From a virus: a stretch of DNA of 64,000 bases. Shown here piece by piece: positions 4,100-12,373 of this stretch. Within the stretch, counting starts at the first letter, position 1. The number at the start of each line of letters is the position of its first letter. Location: IMG/VR virus record IMGVR_UViG_3300012209_000008, positions 2,026 through 66,025 of that record; one strand, 5' to 3'. Below the pieces are notes generated by a model that worked only from the letters and a program-made list of their open reading frames with translations, was not told the DNA's origin and searched no databases. Both the position numbers and the translations under genes were made by a program.

Positions 4100-5857
4100 T
4101 CAGAAAGTGTCTCCTGGTCCTTGCGGGTGATCCAGCAGCTCATCCCACGGCTCCACCCGCAGAAACAAGCTCCGGTCCACCACACTACTCTTGTAGCGAT
4201 GTTTCCCGATATGAATCCCCATCAACCCCGGCACAAGCACCTCGGCCAATGGCATCCGAGCCGCGCGCACCGCGGCCAGTTGTTCCTTCTCCACCCCTGG
4301 TCGGAGCACCTTGTGGAGCATCAGAATCAGGTCCGGCTCCTCCTCCAACGCGCCAGACTGTTTCAGGGCTGTAGTCGGCGGTGGACTCACGAGTGCCAAC
4401 GGCCCTGCTTCTCGCGGGGGACGGTTCGCTTGCGCGGTGAGAAGAATGGTGAGGTGATGTTCCTTGGCCAACTCCTTGGCCCGGCGGACGGTCTCCGTGA
4501 CAGCAGCGGTCAGGTTCCCATTCCCATTGTCCTCGCCGAAGTTCATTCTGAGGATATGATCCAGAATCACAAAACGAAACCCCCACTGGGCAGCTTGTGC
4601 CACATGGGCGGCAAATTGATCGGGCGTCACCCGACCCTGTTCCACAAAGTACAATTGCCCGTGATACCGCTCCCGGAGCCCGCTCACGGCCGCGCTGAGG
4701 CGCGCGGCGATATCTTCCGGCGCCAACTGAAGTTCTTGTGCAAGCCAACTCAGCTCATTCTCCAAGAGCCGAACCGGCGGAATATGTAAGGCCAAGGCAG
4801 CCAAGCGCAGCCACGCCTCCTCTGGCGGCATCTCTGTGGTCAACGCATAGATCCCCCAGCCATGGCTCGCCCAATGAGTAATGCAGTTCATTACGAAGGT
4901 GGTCTTGCCCAAGCCGGGGCGGGCGCCTAACACCACCATCATCGTGCGCCGCAGTTTGCCAAGGGTGGCGTCCAACGTTTTCCACGGCCAGACCGCCAAC
5001 TCCGTCGCGGGCTGGTCGCGGAGCGCATTGGCCCTGGCAATTTGATCCGCCGTAATGCGGTCCCGATCCGCCGCCGATAAGCCGAGCGATCCAGCCTCGG
5101 CGAGGAGTTGCGCCGCCAAATGCTGGTAGACGGGCCCGTGCACAGGCTGATACCGTGCCACATTGGCGGCGATGGCCTGGACCTCCCCCTCCGGCAACGG
5201 TGGGCGGCAGCGCCGCTGGTTTACTGCAAGCAGCGCGATAGCAATCTCCTCCTGTTCCATTCCGCGACGCCGCATGGACCCGGCCAAACTCGTCAACGTG
5301 GTATTGCGTTCGCCGGGAGGGAGCGGCTCGCCCGAGGCCAGCACTACGGGCTCTAGTGTCCCACCGTTCCGGAGCCGCCCAACGATCCCAGCCGGGACAG
5401 AGAGCGCGTCGCTCGTCTTACCGCGCCACCGGTAGACCGTCCCACTGGGATGAATCGACGGGGGCATAATCACATACCCTGCATCGCCCCGGACATCCAC
5501 ATGCGGCGCGAGTACCCGGTTCGCGATGGACCCGCCACCAGGGTGCTGGAACCACAGATGCTGGCCGCGCGCTGTCAGAACCCGGAGCGTCGGAATGGCC
5601 AAGAGTCCCAGACGTTCGGCGGCCACAGTGCCCTCAGCCCCATCCAGATCAAACACCAGATGCCCTGTGCGCCCGGGCACCGCCGCAATGTTGTATTGAG
5701 GGTTCTCCTGCCACCAGCGCTGCACTTGCACTAGATCAGTCGTGGCATCCTTGAAGCCGTTCGGCGTGGCTGGTTCCTTTCCGTGGGCCCGGAGCGGGAA
5801 GATGGGCCAGCCCCGTTGGGCATAGGCAGCTGCGGCGGCTGCCAGATCAATCGACAT
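4100..5857 (-). CDS. primase-helicase: Prim-Pol + PriCT-1 + DnaB-like SF4 helicase
   Basis: N-terminal YAQRGWPIFPL...WWQENPQYNIA...VFDLD...GQHLWF...VDVRGDAGYVIMPPSIHPSG. PPGERNTTL (PriCT). Walker A GARPGLGKTT, VILDHI, LTAQANR and GALEEEPDLILMLH. Confidence 0.92.
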   Translation of the reverse strand: MSIDLAAAAAAYAQRGWPIFPLRAHGKEPATPNGFKDATTDLVQVQRWWQENPQYNIAAVPGRTGHLVFDLDGAEGTVAAERLGLLAIPTLRVLTARGQHLWFQHPGGGSIANRVLAPHVDVRGDAGYVIMPPSIHPSGTVYRWRGKTSDALSVPAGIVGRLRNGGTLEPVVLASGEPLPPGERNTTLTSLAGSMRRRGMEQEEIAIALLAVNQRRCRPPLPEGEVQAIAANVARYQPVHGPVYQHLAAQLLAEAGSLGLSAADRDRITADQIARANALRDQPATELAVWPWKTLDATLGKLRRTMMVVLGARPGLGKTTFVMNCITHWASHGWGIYALTTEMPPEEAWLRLAALALHIPPVRLLENELSWLAQELQLAPEDIAARLSAAVSGLRERYHGQLYFVEQGRVTPDQFAAHVAQAAQWGFRFVILDHILRMNFGEDNGNGNLTAAVTETVRRAKELAKEHHLTILLTAQANRPPREAGPLALVSPPPTTALKQSGALEEEPDLILMLHKVLRPGVEKEQLAAVRAARMPLAEVLVPGLMGIHIGKHRYKSSVVDRSLFLRVEPWDELLDHPQGPGDTF

Positions 5858-8890: not shown

Positions 8891-9442
8891 CTACAGTCCC
8901 GGCAACACCGTGGTGGCGTTCTTGAGGCTCAGCTGACCGTCCAGCGCGCCCAAGACCGCCTCCAGGTGTTCAATCTCCTGGGCCAACACCTGCTCCTCAA
9001 TGTTCACCACGACGTCCTGTGGCTTGGGGGCGGTCCCCGCCACGGCGACGGCGGAGACCACCGCGACGCCCTTGGCCAGCGCCTCCCGCCGCACCTGCTC
9101 AATGCGGACGCGAAGTCCGTTGAGGTACGTCCCGCGCTTGGGCGCCACTTCCCGGCGCCAGGTCAGCCAGTCCTGGAGGGAGCGCGTATCCCCGTTCACC
9201 GTCACCAGCGTGGCGGCGTTGGCCGCGAGGATGGCCCGGCGGATGGCGATGAGCCGGTCCTCCAGGTCCCCCATGGCCTGCTCCTCGGCCTTGATGTACG
9301 CGGCGGAGCCACCCTCGGCCACGATGGGATCCTTGAAGTATTCCTGGCGCGCCAGGTACTGGGTGATGGTTTCGCGCTTCTTGGCCAGCCGCTTGTCGAT
9401 GGTCTTGACCTCGGCGAGCGCTTCCGTGATCGTCAGCGACAT
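8891..9442 (-). CDS. DIP1984/DUF6847-like coiled-coil protein
   Basis: MSLTITEALAEVKTIDKRL...RLIAIRRAILAANAAT...LDGQLSLKNATT matches the family pattern. Confidence 0.6.
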   Translation of the reverse strand: MSLTITEALAEVKTIDKRLAKKRETITQYLARQEYFKDPIVAEGGSAAYIKAEEQAMGDLEDRLIAIRRAILAANAATLVTVNGDTRSLQDWLTWRREVAPKRGTYLNGLRVRIEQVRREALAKGVAVVSAVAVAGTAPKPQDVVVNIEEQVLAQEIEHLEAVLGALDGQLSLKNATTVLPGL

Positions 9443-9469
9443 TCCCTTTTCTCTCCTCTCAGGAAAACC

Positions 9470-9788
9470 TTACCGTGCCCCGCCATACCGCACCAAGCCT
9501 CGCCCGACCTCACCGCACCCGGCCGGACCCTGCCTCGCCCAGCCCGACCCACGCCTTACCCCTAACCACGCCCGACCGCACCGGACCTGACCATACCAAG
9601 CCCCGCCCGAGCTGACCGGACCAGAACCCTGCCATACCACACCCGACCGTGCCTTGCCCCGCCCAGCCGGACCACGCCCTACCACACCCTACCACACCGC
9701 GCCCTGCCTAGCCTTACCACACCGTACGATACCATGCCGCACCCGGCCGGACCAAGCCCAACCCTGCCTAGCCTTGCTCAACCCAGCC
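9470..9788 (-). repeat. GGY-NN pentamer array A (63 units)
   Basis: The plus strand parses as consecutive NN-RCC units (ttacc gtgcc ccgcc atacc gcacc aagcc...). 3 imperfect units; phase shifts at 9550-9567 and 9623-9628. Confidence 0.95.
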
Positions 9789-9794
9789 TCAGAT

Positions 9795-10439
9795 CTACTC
9801 CGTCAACAACTTGAACCCCGCCACGGTGAAGCGACCATAGGTGGGCCGATGATCGCAGAGCCCGGCAATGAGTCCCGCGGAGTTGGCCAGCTTGGTCAGC
9901 AGCTCCGGCGTCACGTAGTGGGGCAGCGTCACCAGGACGATGAAGCTGAGGCGCCAACCCTCCTTGAGGGCTGGACGGACCCGGGTGATGCCTTGCCGCT
10001 GCACCGGCGCCCGTCGCTTGTCCTCGTAGTCCCACTCCTTGCGCCGCGGCTCAAACGGGGCCACGTCATCCAGGGGAATGATGGCGGCCTTGACCAGATC
10101 CCGGAGCGACTTGCGCGGGCTCCGCGGGTCGCTCTCATAGCGGGCCGCCTCTTGGAGTGCCGCGGTGAAGTTCATCCCCGGCACGCCCAGGGTCCCGTCC
10201 GTCATCCGGTACACGTAGGACTCCAGGTTGTCGGTTTTCTTGGCCTTGCTCCCTTTGGCCGACGCGCCCTTCTCCTTCACCGCTTCCACGTCCCAGCGGT
10301 GGAAGAGGATCGGGGCCACGCCCACCACGGAGATCCGCGCGCGATAGGGCTGTTGCAGCGCCACGGCCTCCTTCCCACCGTTGTCCGTTTGCTTCGCATC
10401 GAGTCCGATGCGCTCAGTCGCTCCTGCGGGCGCTTTCAT
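9795..10439 (-). CDS. stand-alone Cas7/RAMP-superfamily protein (Vipr-like), 214 aa
   Basis: RISVVGVAPILFHR (first RRM strand), GTLGVPGMNFTAALQEAA (RAMP P-x-helix), VRPALKEGWRLSFIV and the C-terminal Gly-rich loop AGLIAGLCDHRPTYGRF. ATG at 10439 has a GAGG SD; the upstream 63 codons in the track are array sequence. Confidence 0.8.
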   Translation of the reverse strand: MKAPAGATERIGLDAKQTDNGGKEAVALQQPYRARISVVGVAPILFHRWDVEAVKEKGASAKGSKAKKTDNLESYVYRMTDGTLGVPGMNFTAALQEAARYESDPRSPRKSLRDLVKAAIIPLDDVAPFEPRRKEWDYEDKRRAPVQRQGITRVRPALKEGWRLSFIVLVTLPHYVTPELLTKLANSAGLIAGLCDHRPTYGRFTVAGFKLLTE

Positions 10440-10464
10440 GGAAACCTCTTTCAAAGGAGAAGGG

Positions 10465-10920
10465 ATACCACACCTGGCCTCGCCCCACCTCACCACACCT
10501 AACCAAACCTGGACGCACCAGACCCTGCCATGCCAAACCGAACCACGCCGAACCGGACCCGGCCTTGCCACGCCGCACCGAACCCCACCACACCCAACCT
10601 TACCACGCCGTGCCGAACCGAGCCGCACCTTGCCTAACCCTACCCTGCCTGACCAGGACCTGCCGCGCCATACCGCGCCGTACCCTACCTGACCGGACCG
10701 TGCCTTGCCAGACCAAACCTGAACCCACCGTGACAGGACCGACCGAACCTAGCCACACCGCACCACGCCGAACCTCACCCCACCTTGCCCCACCGGACCA
10801 TACCCGAGCACACCACGCCCGAGCCAGGCCACGCCTCACCATACCGCGCCGTACCCAACCTGGCCTTGCCCCGCCGCACCGTACCACACCAAGCCACGGC
10901 TCGCCTCACCGCGCCGCGCT
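10465..10920 (-). repeat. GGY-NN pentamer array B (91 units)
   Basis: NN-RCC units keep the 5-nt phase from 10465 to 10819 (71 units), shift +1 at 10820-10825, then run 19 more units. 8 imperfect units. Confidence 0.95.
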
Positions 10921-11927
10921 CAGAATGGTAAATCATCATCCTCCGCCTCTAGGATGAGAGCATCACGCCGCTGCTGTTCTGCTTTCAGAAGCTCCACCAC
11001 CGGTCGCCACACGGCTGGTCGTTTGACCTTGGTGGTGAGTGCCAGGATCATCGCCTGCAAGCGGTCTGGCGGAATCTCGCGAACGCTTTTTCCGGACCAA
11101 CCCTTCAATGCCTTGGCGCGTGGTAAGAATGGTCCAAGGGTTCGATCCTCCTGCTCTTGCTTCGGGGGCTGGCGCTCACTCGGGGGCGCAGCCGCCTCGC
11201 CCGGATCCGCTTCCTCCGCCGTGGTAAAAATCTCGTCCGCGGCTGTGGCCACGATCACCGCTTGGACAAAGGCCCGCTTCCCAGCCCGCGCCACCACGTC
11301 ATTGAGCGCCGCACGCCAGTCCGGTTTGGTCTTGACGCGACTCTCTCCTTGCTCATCCTTCTCAATCACCGCGCCATACTTGCGCTGGGTCCAAATACTC
11401 CGGAACCCGGCCTCGGCGGTGGAGCAGCTGCCGACGGCGGAGCCGACCTGGCGCCGATAGTTGTCCAGCAACGTCACCTCCACCGTCTGGCTCACGAAGT
11501 CCGCCGTCTCCGTCCCGCCCACCAGCTTGGTCTCGCCTTTGGCGTAGCGGAACAGCTGGGCGAGCTTCTCGCCGCCGCGCTTGGTGAGGGCCTTCTGCTT
11601 GCTCCCGGGCACGACGTAGTAGTCATGGAGCTTGCCTGGGGCGGGAGCGCCCTTGCTGTCGTACTCCGCTTCTTGGAGGTACTCACGGACAAACTTGAGC
11701 AGCGTGTCCCGCTGAATCTTCCACCAGGCCAGTTGCTTCTCCAGATCCAGCGGCCGCTCCAGCATCGCGGCTTCTAGCGCCAGCCCGCGCGGCACAGCCG
11801 TCTGCGACTGCTGATCCCAGACGTGTCCCGTCGGCACCAAGCCCTGGGCCTGCGCGGCGGCGGCATCCAACAGTGCCTTCACCTCGGCCTGTGCTGAAGG
11901 CTTCTCAGTAACGGTCTTGTTGGTCAC
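10920..11927 (-). CDS. putative single-strand annealing / recombination protein
   Basis: KALTKRGGEKLAQLF...GSAVGSCSTAE...NDVVARAGKRAFVQAVIVATAADEIFT and an acidic DDDLPF tail. GTG at 11927 with a GAGGAGG SD. Confidence 0.7.
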   Translation of the reverse strand: MTNKTVTEKPSAQAEVKALLDAAAAQAQGLVPTGHVWDQQSQTAVPRGLALEAAMLERPLDLEKQLAWWKIQRDTLLKFVREYLQEAEYDSKGAPAPGKLHDYYVVPGSKQKALTKRGGEKLAQLFRYAKGETKLVGGTETADFVSQTVEVTLLDNYRRQVGSAVGSCSTAEAGFRSIWTQRKYGAVIEKDEQGESRVKTKPDWRAALNDVVARAGKRAFVQAVIVATAADEIFTTAEEADPGEAAAPPSERQPPKQEQEDRTLGPFLPRAKALKGWSGKSVREIPPDRLQAMILALTTKVKRPAVWRPVVELLKAEQQRRDALILEAEDDDLPF

Positions 11928-11942
11928 GCTCCTCCTCTGGTT

Positions 11943-11997
11943 GGGCCGAACCAAACCACGCCACGCCACACCAAGCCGAACCCGGCCTCACCGCGCC
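11943..11997 (-). repeat. GGY-NN pentamer array C (11 units)
   Basis: gggcc gaacc aaacc acgcc acgcc acacc aagcc gaacc cggcc tcacc gcgcc, all perfect NN-RCC, intergenic. Confidence 0.9.
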
Positions 11998-12009
11998 GCA
12001 GGTTAGGCT

Positions 12010-12246
12010 TCACGCGGCCTTCACTCCCAAGCGCTGAAGCGTCTGCGCCTCCAACCGCTCTCGGAGTTCTCCAACGTACTGCGTGCGCCGCGTCTCCGGG
12101 AGGACGCGCAGAGCCCGCGCTGCCAACCGGCGGCAGCGCGCGGAATGAAACTGGCGCTTGCGGCCACGCCGCGCCGGATCCTCCTGAAACGTCACGGCGC
12201 ACCCGGGCCGCGCACAGCAGAGGCCAGACACGAGACCATGAGGCAT
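12010..12246 (-). CDS. small Cys/His protein (CxxxxC...HxxxC), possible DNA-binding regulator
   Basis: LCCARPGCAVTF...RKRQFHSARCRR; AAGGAGG SD. Confidence 0.55.
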   Translation of the reverse strand: MPHGLVSGLCCARPGCAVTFQEDPARRGRKRQFHSARCRRLAARALRVLPETRRTQYVGELRERLEAQTLQRLGVKAA

Positions 12247-12353: not shown

Positions 12354-12373
12354 TGTAATATGTTGATATTACA
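12354..12373. promoter_or_regulatory. perfect 8-bp inverted repeat in AT-rich divergent control region
   Basis: TGTAATAT-GTTG-ATATTACA inside the only markedly AT-rich intergenic patch (about 12310-12460), between divergent gene blocks. Confidence 0.55.

What the first reader, a model, noticed from the sequence alone, without database searches (positions are those of the whole stretch)
9470..11997. Candidate non-CRISPR RNA-guided system: a lone Cas7/RAMP-like gene flanked by GGY-NN pentamer arrays (VIPR-like)
Seen: on the transcribed (minus) strand, three intergenic tracts of 63, 91 and 11 units repeat a 5-nt unit with invariant GG-Y and two freely varying bases. Two of them directly flank a 214-aa gene with RAMP hallmarks (RRM first strand, P-x-helix motif, C-terminal Gly-rich loop AGLIAGLCDHRPTYGRF). 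There is no cas1, cas2, cas3 or cas6 and no repeat-spacer array. Established: Cas7 RAMPs polymerise along guide RNA with fixed periodicity. Inference: each protomer grips one GGY and displays the NN, so the NN string encodes a gapped target. From memory, this fits the recently reported phage VIPR (Viral Interference Programmable Repeat) systems, in which NN pairs read DNA with every third base skipped and act against competing phages. That attribution needs checking against the literature. This instance and its guides may be new.
Basis: partly seen in the sequence, partly recalled or inferred. Interest (0 to 1): 0.96.

Follow-up and report, generated by a model that had tools for sequence, protein, structure and literature searches.

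The report
Phage VIPR locus with long guide arrays
An uncultured soil phage carries a VIPR system (a small CRISPR-related protein plus about 160 five-base guide-RNA repeats), a kind of RNA-guided DNA silencer first described in 2026, so this is a new example of a known kind; its one unusual trait is a guide that nearly matches the phage's own primase gene.

Summary
Three minus-strand GGYNN arrays (161 units: G1 159/161, G2 153/161, Y3 161/161, NN near-random) flank a 214-aa gene in a 68-kb IMG/VR soil phage contig. A family profile matches the solved SUSP1 Vipr protein (E 2e-14). My AlphaFold model's top AlphaFold-DB hits include all five seed proteins of the VIPR discovery paper, and its top PDB hits are Cas7/Csm3/Cmr4. 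The residues that read G1, G2 and Y3 in SUSP1 are conserved. 79 of 84 homologue loci carry same-strand arrays, against 1 of 84 on the opposite strand. Decoding 2,837 units from those loci supports the published one-base-skip code in this clade: 125 strong matches, against 1 to 4 in controls. This scan has already met VIPR loci in other genomes. Features of this instance: very long tail-less arrays, no conserved accessory gene, and a mini-array separated from vipr by an unrelated gene. Its targets are unknown, since nine exact-pattern database scans found nothing. The first 13 units of the downstream array match the phage's own primase gene at 22/26 positions (at most 2 of 1000 shuffles under a block-start test chosen after seeing the hit). 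Verdict: new member of a known kind.

The parts
11941..11995 (-). Array A3: 11 GGYNN units (one guide's worth). It lies between the stop of a 92-aa gene and the ribosome-binding site of the 335-aa gene.
   Evidence: Its first units are paralogous to the start of A2 (82% over 34 nt).
10920..11927 (-). 335-aa phage gene embedded between arrays A3 and A2. It is not a conserved VIPR partner. There are weak hints of a single-strand-annealing protein with an ExoX-like C-terminal domain.
   Evidence: phrog_10048, function unknown. No Pfam, PADLOC or NCBIfam hit. Atlas leads only. Absent from all 85 homologue loci and from the closest relatives.
10466..10915 (-). Array A2: about 89-90 GGYNN units upstream of vipr, in one phase apart from a single +1 shift. 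Seven units are degenerate (G2 replaced by a pyrimidine). It would hold roughly 6-7 guides.
   Evidence: It folds no better than shuffles.
9795..10439 (-). vipr gene, 214 aa: a single-RRM RAMP with a thumb hairpin and a C-terminal G-loop.
9471..9788 (-). Array A1: about 62 GGYNN units directly after the vipr stop codon, with three phase shifts. It would hold roughly 4-5 guides, and it runs up to the ribosome-binding site of the next gene.
5544..5582 (+). Candidate target of the first guide of A1 (units 1-13): 22 of 26 NN positions match under the one-base-skip rule. The site lies in the phage's own primase-helicase gene (4100-5857, minus strand), on codons of the motif VLTARGQHLWFQH, with the skipped bases on wobble positions.
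   Evidence: Probably real, function unproven.

Best explanation
This is a VIPR (Viral Interference Programmable Repeat) system of an uncultured soil phage. The three arrays are probably transcribed with vipr as part of a leftward operon. Vipr protomers would bind the RNA one per pentamer, with H47 and D196 reading G1, R155 and H197 holding G2, and R198 contacting the pyrimidine. That forms a helical filament which hides each GGY and presents each NN pair. The NN string then pairs with double-stranded DNA that carries the same dinucleotides separated by one skipped base. Since no nuclease or helicase partner is present, the expected outcome is transcriptional silencing of competing mobile elements, not cutting. 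Shown here: the arrays, membership of the protein in the Vipr family, conservation of the GGY-reading residues, gene-array linkage across the family, and validity of the one-base-skip code in this clade. Inferred by homology: filament formation, DNA binding and silencing. Unknown: how 90-unit tail-less arrays are cut into guides of about 10-16 units, and what the roughly 12 guides target.
For: Arrays and their statistics. Vipr membership: family profile against PDB 36pp, SUSP1 Vipr, E 2.4e-14 over profile 33-208 and chain 4-190. Fold: AlphaFold model pLDDT 82.8; AlphaFold-DB rank 1 is X1U2U4 (E 2.4e-13, TM 0.72/0.85), and A0A0F9A1L0, A0A661D0E2, A0A1F4YLN4 and A0A2D6XG06 rank 2, 3, 4 and 8, which are the five seeds named in the discovery paper. 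PDB top hits are all Cas7-type RAMPs, Z up to 10.6. Residue map: H17>H47, R138>R155, D177>D196, R179>R198, all invariant in 37 relatives; W178>H197, aromatic in 36 of 37; K82>R100 and K88>R106, basic. Their roles are taken from the cryo-EM paper. Linkage: 79 of 84 loci have a same-strand array, 1 of 84 an opposite-strand one; my detector also recovers the SUSP1 arrays. Code: 125 windows at 18/20 or better with one skip, against 1 (no skip), 4 (two skips) and 4, 4, 4 (shuffles); 62 of 63 pairs are between different elements. Phage context.
Against: There is no expression or binding data, and no RNA run holds the locus. No external target was found for any guide. The helical-bundle region that forms the skipped-base pocket is shorter than in SUSP1, and K33 and R39 are not conserved. 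No vap gene is conserved next to vipr. No structured 3' tail or ribozyme is present to define guide ends. The contig is about 69% complete.
Confidence: 0.88

Rival explanations
1. It is a working VIPR, but at least one guide acts on the phage itself. The first guide of A1 binds the phage's own primase-helicase gene and tunes or shuts off replication and early gene expression. That would be autoregulation, not warfare between phages.
For: 22/26 NN identity (0.85, above the 0.8 cut-off the authors use). The match starts at the first unit of the array, as verified family pairs do, and the skipped bases fall on wobble positions. Under the block-start null it is reached in 2, 1 and 0 of 1000 shuffles for 10, 12 and 13 units. 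No better-matching foreign primase was found.
Against: A length-free segment score is reached by 8% of shuffles. The block-start criterion was adopted after seeing the hit. The authors found no self-hits at 0.8 or above in their systems and describe guides that match the carrier less well than rivals as a way to avoid autoimmunity. Four mismatches may abolish binding.
Confidence: 0.15
2. The arrays are an expanded pentanucleotide satellite, or the decayed remnant of a VIPR system, and are no longer used as guides.
For: Ten degenerate units and four phase shifts. No external target found. No expression data.
Against: 151 of 161 units are canonical, and position 3 is never a purine, while NN is near maximal entropy. 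A slipping satellite would homogenise NN. The vipr reading frame is intact and keeps every family-invariant residue. Degenerate units also occur inside guides with verified targets in relatives.
Confidence: 0.05
3. The complex targets RNA, as type III Cas7 (Csm3/Cmr4) complexes do, and not DNA.
For: The nearest solved folds are Csm3 and Cmr4. SUSP1 Vipr can hold an RNA target in the duplex. The primase-site guide is antisense to the primase mRNA.
Against: The published work shows double-stranded DNA binding, silencing from either strand, and a DNA-dependent triplex needed for complete filaments. The residues that clamp the non-target strand stay basic here. My attempt to settle the target strand in family pairs was inconclusive, because many frames are open in GC-rich DNA.
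Confidence: 0.04

Closest known systems
VIPR systems (Vipr protein plus vrRNAs): bioRxiv 10.64898/2026.04.26.720920, 10.64898/2026.04.26.720927, 10.64898/2026.10.15.759431
   Same: A lone small RAMP protein homologous to Vipr. GGYNN tandem repeats on the gene's strand in the flanking intergenic regions. Phage-borne. No cas genes and no CRISPR array. GGY-contact residues conserved. The one-base-skip code holds in the clade.
   Different: The type (I-VII) could not be assigned, because the type tables are not in the held text. There is no conserved vap gene. The arrays are among the longest in my 84-locus sample.
Type II VIPR of Escherichia phage phiSUSP1 (KT454805.2; PDB 36pp)
   Same: Arrays lie both upstream and downstream of vipr. 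H17, R138, D177 and R179 are conserved and W178 stays aromatic. The G-loop motif is GD-aromatic-RP-x-aromatic-GRF.
   Different: Only 22.9% identity. SUSP1 has discrete vrRNAs of 9-16 units, each with a conserved pseudoknot tail, and a vap1 gene. Here the tracts are continuous (62 and 89 units), no tail folds better than shuffles and there is no vap1. This protein has about 30 extra N-terminal residues with an invariant NG, and a bundle region about 10 residues shorter that lacks K33 and R39.
'Staggered' vrRNA arrays (discovery paper, fig. S18)
   Same: Guides abut one another with no intervening tail or ribozyme. Occasional 1-nt register shifts occur.
   Different: Only the legend is available, so identity of architecture cannot be tested. 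Here one phase runs for up to 70 units.
CRISPR Cas7-family RAMPs (Csm3, Cmr4, type VII Cas7, Cas7-11)
   Same: RRM core, thumb and G-loop fold. Z 8-10.6 and Foldseek E about 3e-5.
   Different: 7-17% identity. No hit to any Pfam, NCBIfam or PADLOC Cas model. No CRISPR array or other cas genes. The guide is a 5-nt repeat, not a repeat-spacer unit.

Membership tests
VIPR | Protein homologous to published Vipr proteins | tested here: met
   Family profile against PDB 36pp SUSP1 Vipr, E 2.4e-14, near full length. All five discovery seeds lie within the top 8 AlphaFold-DB cluster hits, with X1U2U4 first.
VIPR | Minimal RAMP fold: single RRM core, thumb, glycine-rich loop | tested here: met
   Model pLDDT 82.8. 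All top PDB hits are Cas7-type RAMPs, Z up to 10.6. The G-loop aligns with that of SUSP1.
VIPR | Residues that read G1, G2 and Y3 of the repeat | tested here: met
   H47, R155, D196 and R198 are invariant in 37 relatives. Position 197 is aromatic in 36 of 37 and is His here.
VIPR | Tandem GGY/NN pentamer arrays next to vipr on its strand, with GGY conserved and NN hypervariable | tested here: met
   161 units with 1.89, 1.67, 1.01, 0.04 and 0.01 bits at positions 1-5. 79 of 84 homologue loci have a same-strand array, 1 of 84 an opposite-strand one.
VIPR | Non-CRISPR, mostly viral context | tested here: met
   Phage structural and replication genes. IMG/VR virus record. No Cas1, Cas2, Cas6 or CRISPR-like repeats.
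VIPR | One-base-skip (NNx) target code | tested here: inconclusive
   Met for the clade: 125 against 1-4 strong matches. For this locus there is only one near-match, in the phage's own primase gene, and nine exact scans gave nothing.
VIPR | Accessory vap gene (typical, not universal) | tested here: not met
   No neighbouring gene is shared with 85 homologue loci or with the closest relatives.
VIPR | vrRNAs expressed and bound by Vipr | not testable with these tools
   Only DNA soil-metagenome runs hold the locus.
VIPR type II (SUSP1-like) | Each vrRNA ends in a conserved structured 3' tail | tested here: not met
   The 3' flanks and array segments fold no better than shuffles, z -0.04 to +1.35. 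No Rfam family matched, including hammerhead.
CRISPR-Cas Cas7 | Match to curated Cas7/Csm3/Cmr4 sequence models, plus an associated CRISPR array and cas operon | tested here: not met
   No Pfam, NCBIfam or PADLOC hit. No array or cas genes. Similarity is at fold level only.

The most novel reading that the evidence does not exclude
The first guide of the downstream array is a real, selected match to the catalytic-motif codons of a primase of the phage's own subtype. On this reading, either the phage uses VIPR to throttle its own replication gene, or it targets close-kin competitor phages while four mismatches spare its own copy. Self or near-self targeting at 0.8 identity or above was not seen in the published systems. 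With it comes a tail-less mode of making guides from 60-90-unit continuous arrays, whose rules are not described in the held texts.
Probability: 0.3. Interest if true: 0.6.

Novelty: new member of a known kind. Interest (0 to 1): 0.4.

Why it matters
VIPR is a months-old discovery, so well-documented natural instances outside enterobacterial and Pseudomonas phages help map its diversity. This soil-phage instance belongs to a large clade (2,685 relatives at E <= 1e-3; many in Planctomycetota prophages) that is only 23% identical to the studied SUSP1 protein. The same GGY-reading residues and the same one-base-skip code still hold in that clade, which I checked independently of the authors' data. 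It is also a test case for two open questions. First, how are guides cut from long arrays that have no tail and no ribozyme? Second, how many mismatches does the system tolerate, given a natural guide that is 85% identical to an essential gene of its own carrier?

Tried and rejected
- **Exact-pattern target scans, all with 0 hits.** A1 units 1-10 in IMG/VR. A 13-unit pattern accepting the guide's base or the phage's own base, in JGI metagenomes and IMG/VR. A2 units 7-16, 24-33 and 41-50 in IMG/VR. A3 in metagenomes and IMG/VR. A2 units 1-10 in IMG/VR. These scans need perfect matches over 10-13 units, so they miss imperfect targets.
- **This phage's guides against 0.8 Mb of Vipr-bearing loci.** Nothing above chance.
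- **A rival primase that fits the guide better than the phage's own.** No close primase relative in IMG/VR. In the 5.8-billion-protein set the best is 49-57% identity over part of the protein. None of 99 homologues fits better at peptide level.
- **Trp-for-Tyr as an escape mutation.** Rejected: Trp occurs in 10 of 85 homologues.
- **Degenerate units as guide boundaries.** Rejected: in verified family pairs they lie inside the matched region and still pair.
- **A conserved vap gene.** None found.
- **A structured tail or ribozyme.** None found.
- **Transcription evidence.** No RNA runs. The two DNA runs give one identical contig at near-equal depth, possibly the same data, and show no array variation.
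- **Complex prediction of three Vipr copies plus RNA.** The tool did not fold it, so there is no evidence either way.
- **Type assignment.** The held supplement has only methods and legends.
- **Host inference.** The major capsid protein is only 36-46% identical to cultured phages.
- **Target-strand test for DNA versus RNA targeting.** Inconclusive.
- A residue map made with mafft --keeplength was wrong and was redone.
Full report
**Observation.** Read on the minus strand, window 9440-12020 holds three tracts of five-base units of the form GGYNN. A detector for in-phase GGY finds these three tracts and nothing else in the window. It finds nothing else in the whole 68,387-base contig either, and nothing in 20 shuffled contigs. 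A phase-aware parse gives about 62 units (A1, 9471-9788), 89-90 units (A2, 10466-10915) and 11 units (A3, 11941-11995). Over 161 units, G1 is present in 159, G2 in 153, and position 3 is a pyrimidine in all 161. The two N positions carry 0.04 and 0.01 bits. GGY occurs at 0.06 per position on the rest of that strand. Ten units are degenerate and there are four register shifts of 1-2 nt.

**Context.** The record is an IMG/VR virus contig, linear, about 69% complete by CheckV. It encodes a major head protein, portal, large terminase, tail proteins, DNA polymerase, ThyX and a Prim-Pol/DnaB-type primase-helicase. It comes from soil metagenomes and has no close cultured relative. It has no Cas1, Cas2 or Cas6 match, no CRISPR-like repeat, and one vipr copy. 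The arrays fill the intergenic spaces of a leftward gene string, each running up to the ribosome-binding site of the next gene. The order is: 92-aa gene, A3, 335-aa gene, A2, 214-aa gene, A1, 183-aa gene.

**The protein.**
- The 214-aa product has no Pfam, NCBIfam or PADLOC match, but it has 2,685 relatives at E <= 1e-3.
- A profile of 37 relatives matches one PDB sequence only, 'SUSP1 Vipr protein' (36pp), at E 2.4e-14 over nearly the full length. The single sequence gives E 0.014.
- The AlphaFold model has pLDDT 82.8. By Foldseek it matches only Cas7-type RAMPs at the top. By VIA-align the top 31 chains are all RAMPs, with Z up to 10.6.
- Against AlphaFold-DB clusters, ranks 1-4 and 8 are X1U2U4, A0A0F9A1L0, A0A661D0E2, A0A1F4YLN4 and A0A2D6XG06. 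These are the five entries from which the VIPR family was defined.
- I fetched phiSUSP1 (KT454805.2) and aligned its Vipr to the family. Identity is 22.9%. The residues that the cryo-EM paper assigns to G1 (H17, D177), G2 (R138, W178) and Y3 (R179) map to H47, D196, R155, H197 and R198. Four of these are invariant in the family and position 197 is aromatic in 36 of 37.
- The two basic residues that clamp the non-target strand stay basic (R100, R106).
- The helical-bundle region is about 10 residues shorter and lacks K33 and R39. There is an extra N-terminal segment of about 30 residues with an invariant NG.

**Linkage.** I collected 84 homologue loci: metagenome contigs, phage DSL-LC04, and 80 loci from GTDB species genomes across many phyla, often Phycisphaerales. 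Of these, 79 have a same-strand GGYNN array within 1.5 kb of the gene and 1 has an opposite-strand one. The detector also recovers the known SUSP1 vrRNA regions. Typical arrays are 45-260 nt. Two loci have 700-790 nt continuous arrays that end in a terminator. So the roughly 830 nt here is at the top of the range but not unique.

No neighbouring gene of this window recurs next to vipr in any other locus. The closest relatives (59-79% identical Vipr) share only vipr and the arrays with this phage. The module is therefore vipr plus arrays, and it appears to move between otherwise unrelated phages. The embedded 335-aa gene is an unrelated phage gene with only weak functional hints.

**The code in this clade.** Because the skipped-base pocket looks different here, I tested the rule directly. 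I decoded 156 array blocks (2,837 units, 79 loci) and searched them against the same loci with the arrays masked. Windows of 10 units with at least 18 of 20 matches numbered 1 with no skip, 125 with one skip and 4 with two skips. Three shuffles under the one-skip rule gave 4 each. The 125 windows form 63 guide-target pairs from 13 guide blocks, and 62 pairs are between different elements. Examples are 23/24 for an L029 guide on L007 and 30/32 for an L052 guide on L021. One L001 guide hits the G-loop codons of other elements' vipr genes. In these pairs the match usually begins at or near the first unit of a block and runs 9-16 units. Degenerate units lie inside the matched region and still pair, and the last 2-4 units are often unmatched.

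**Targets of this phage.** Nine exact-pattern scans of IMG/VR and JGI metagenomes with decoded guides found nothing. Nothing turned up in the 0.8 Mb of related loci either.

The only strong match is internal. Units 1-13 of A1 match window 5544-5582 at 22/26, and at 18/20 over the first ten. The site lies in the phage's own primase-helicase gene (4100-5857, minus strand), and the skipped bases fall on wobble positions. It covers the Prim-Pol motif VLTARGQHLWFQH.

Its significance depends on the test:
- 1 of 200 shuffles reach 22/26 anywhere in the contig.
- 8% of shuffles reach its length-free segment score.
- 2, 1 and 0 of 1000 shuffles reach it when only guides starting at a block's first unit are allowed. 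I took that criterion from the family pairs but adopted it after seeing the hit.

No foreign primase fits the guide better, and a Trp-for-Tyr 'escape' reading has no support. I rate the match as probably real but of unknown meaning. The third VIPR paper describes guides that match rivals better than the carrier as a way to avoid autoimmunity, so a kin-competitor target is plausible. Autoregulation is the alternative.

**Guide biogenesis.** No Rfam family, including hammerhead ribozymes, is present, and ARAGORN finds no tRNA gene. Array segments and their 3' flanks fold no better than shuffles. The architecture therefore differs from SUSP1-type tailed vrRNAs and resembles the 'staggered' continuous arrays mentioned in the discovery paper. 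How guides are cut out is unknown. The starts of A3 and A2 are paralogous, which suggests the arrays grow by duplication.

**Verdict.** This is a new member of a known, very recently described kind, which this scan has already met in other genomes. Its particular features are long tail-less arrays, a lone vipr, a detached mini-array, and a near-match to its own primase gene.

Noticed in passing
L001:5635-6090 (guide block) against L002, L006, L018, L020, L087, L088, L089: One guide of a metagenomic Vipr locus matches, at 18-19 of 20 positions, the antisense strand of the G-loop codons at the 3' end of other elements' vipr genes. This is an anti-VIPR guide of the kind the papers describe for enterobacterial phages. 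On this window's vipr it reaches only 18/26.
   Followed up: partly
L007, L012, L024, L025, L029, L033, L052, L058, L059 (mostly Planctomycetota MAG prophages): There is dense cross-targeting. Guides from one Vipr-bearing element match conserved sites a few hundred bases to several kb from vipr in up to 14 other elements, which suggests a network of related prophages silencing one another.
   Followed up: partly
L005:4962-5579 (Phage DSL-LC04, OR003939.1): The Vipr homologue of this cultured freshwater phage is annotated as 'helix-turn-helix transcriptional regulator', and the array of about 300 nt upstream of it is unannotated. Gene callers also place spurious ORFs inside arrays, for example L001 4611-4949 and 5703-5981, and the window ORF 9795-10628.
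   Followed up: partly
window 12354-12373: In the AT-rich divergent intergenic region upstream of the operon that holds the VIPR locus, there is a perfect 8-bp inverted repeat with a 4-nt spacer (TGTAATAT CAAC ATATTACA). It looks like an operator site. The sigma-70 consensus scan found no minus-strand promoter there.
   Followed up: no
window 9532-9553 and 11193-11210: In both soil runs, a 4,649-nt contig at five-fold higher depth shares a 22-nt exact word with array A1 and an 18-nt word with the 335-aa gene, in the same order. It could be a distant relative in the same soil or a GC-rich coincidence. No tool could fetch it.
   Followed up: no
window 10884-10917 and 11966-11999: The first six or seven units of arrays A2 and A3 are paralogous: 82% identity over 34 nt, with four of the first six NN pairs identical. 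This suggests the arrays grow by duplication.
   Followed up: partly
whole window: ARAGORN finds no tRNA and Rfam (gathering thresholds) finds no family anywhere in the 64 kb.
   Followed up: no
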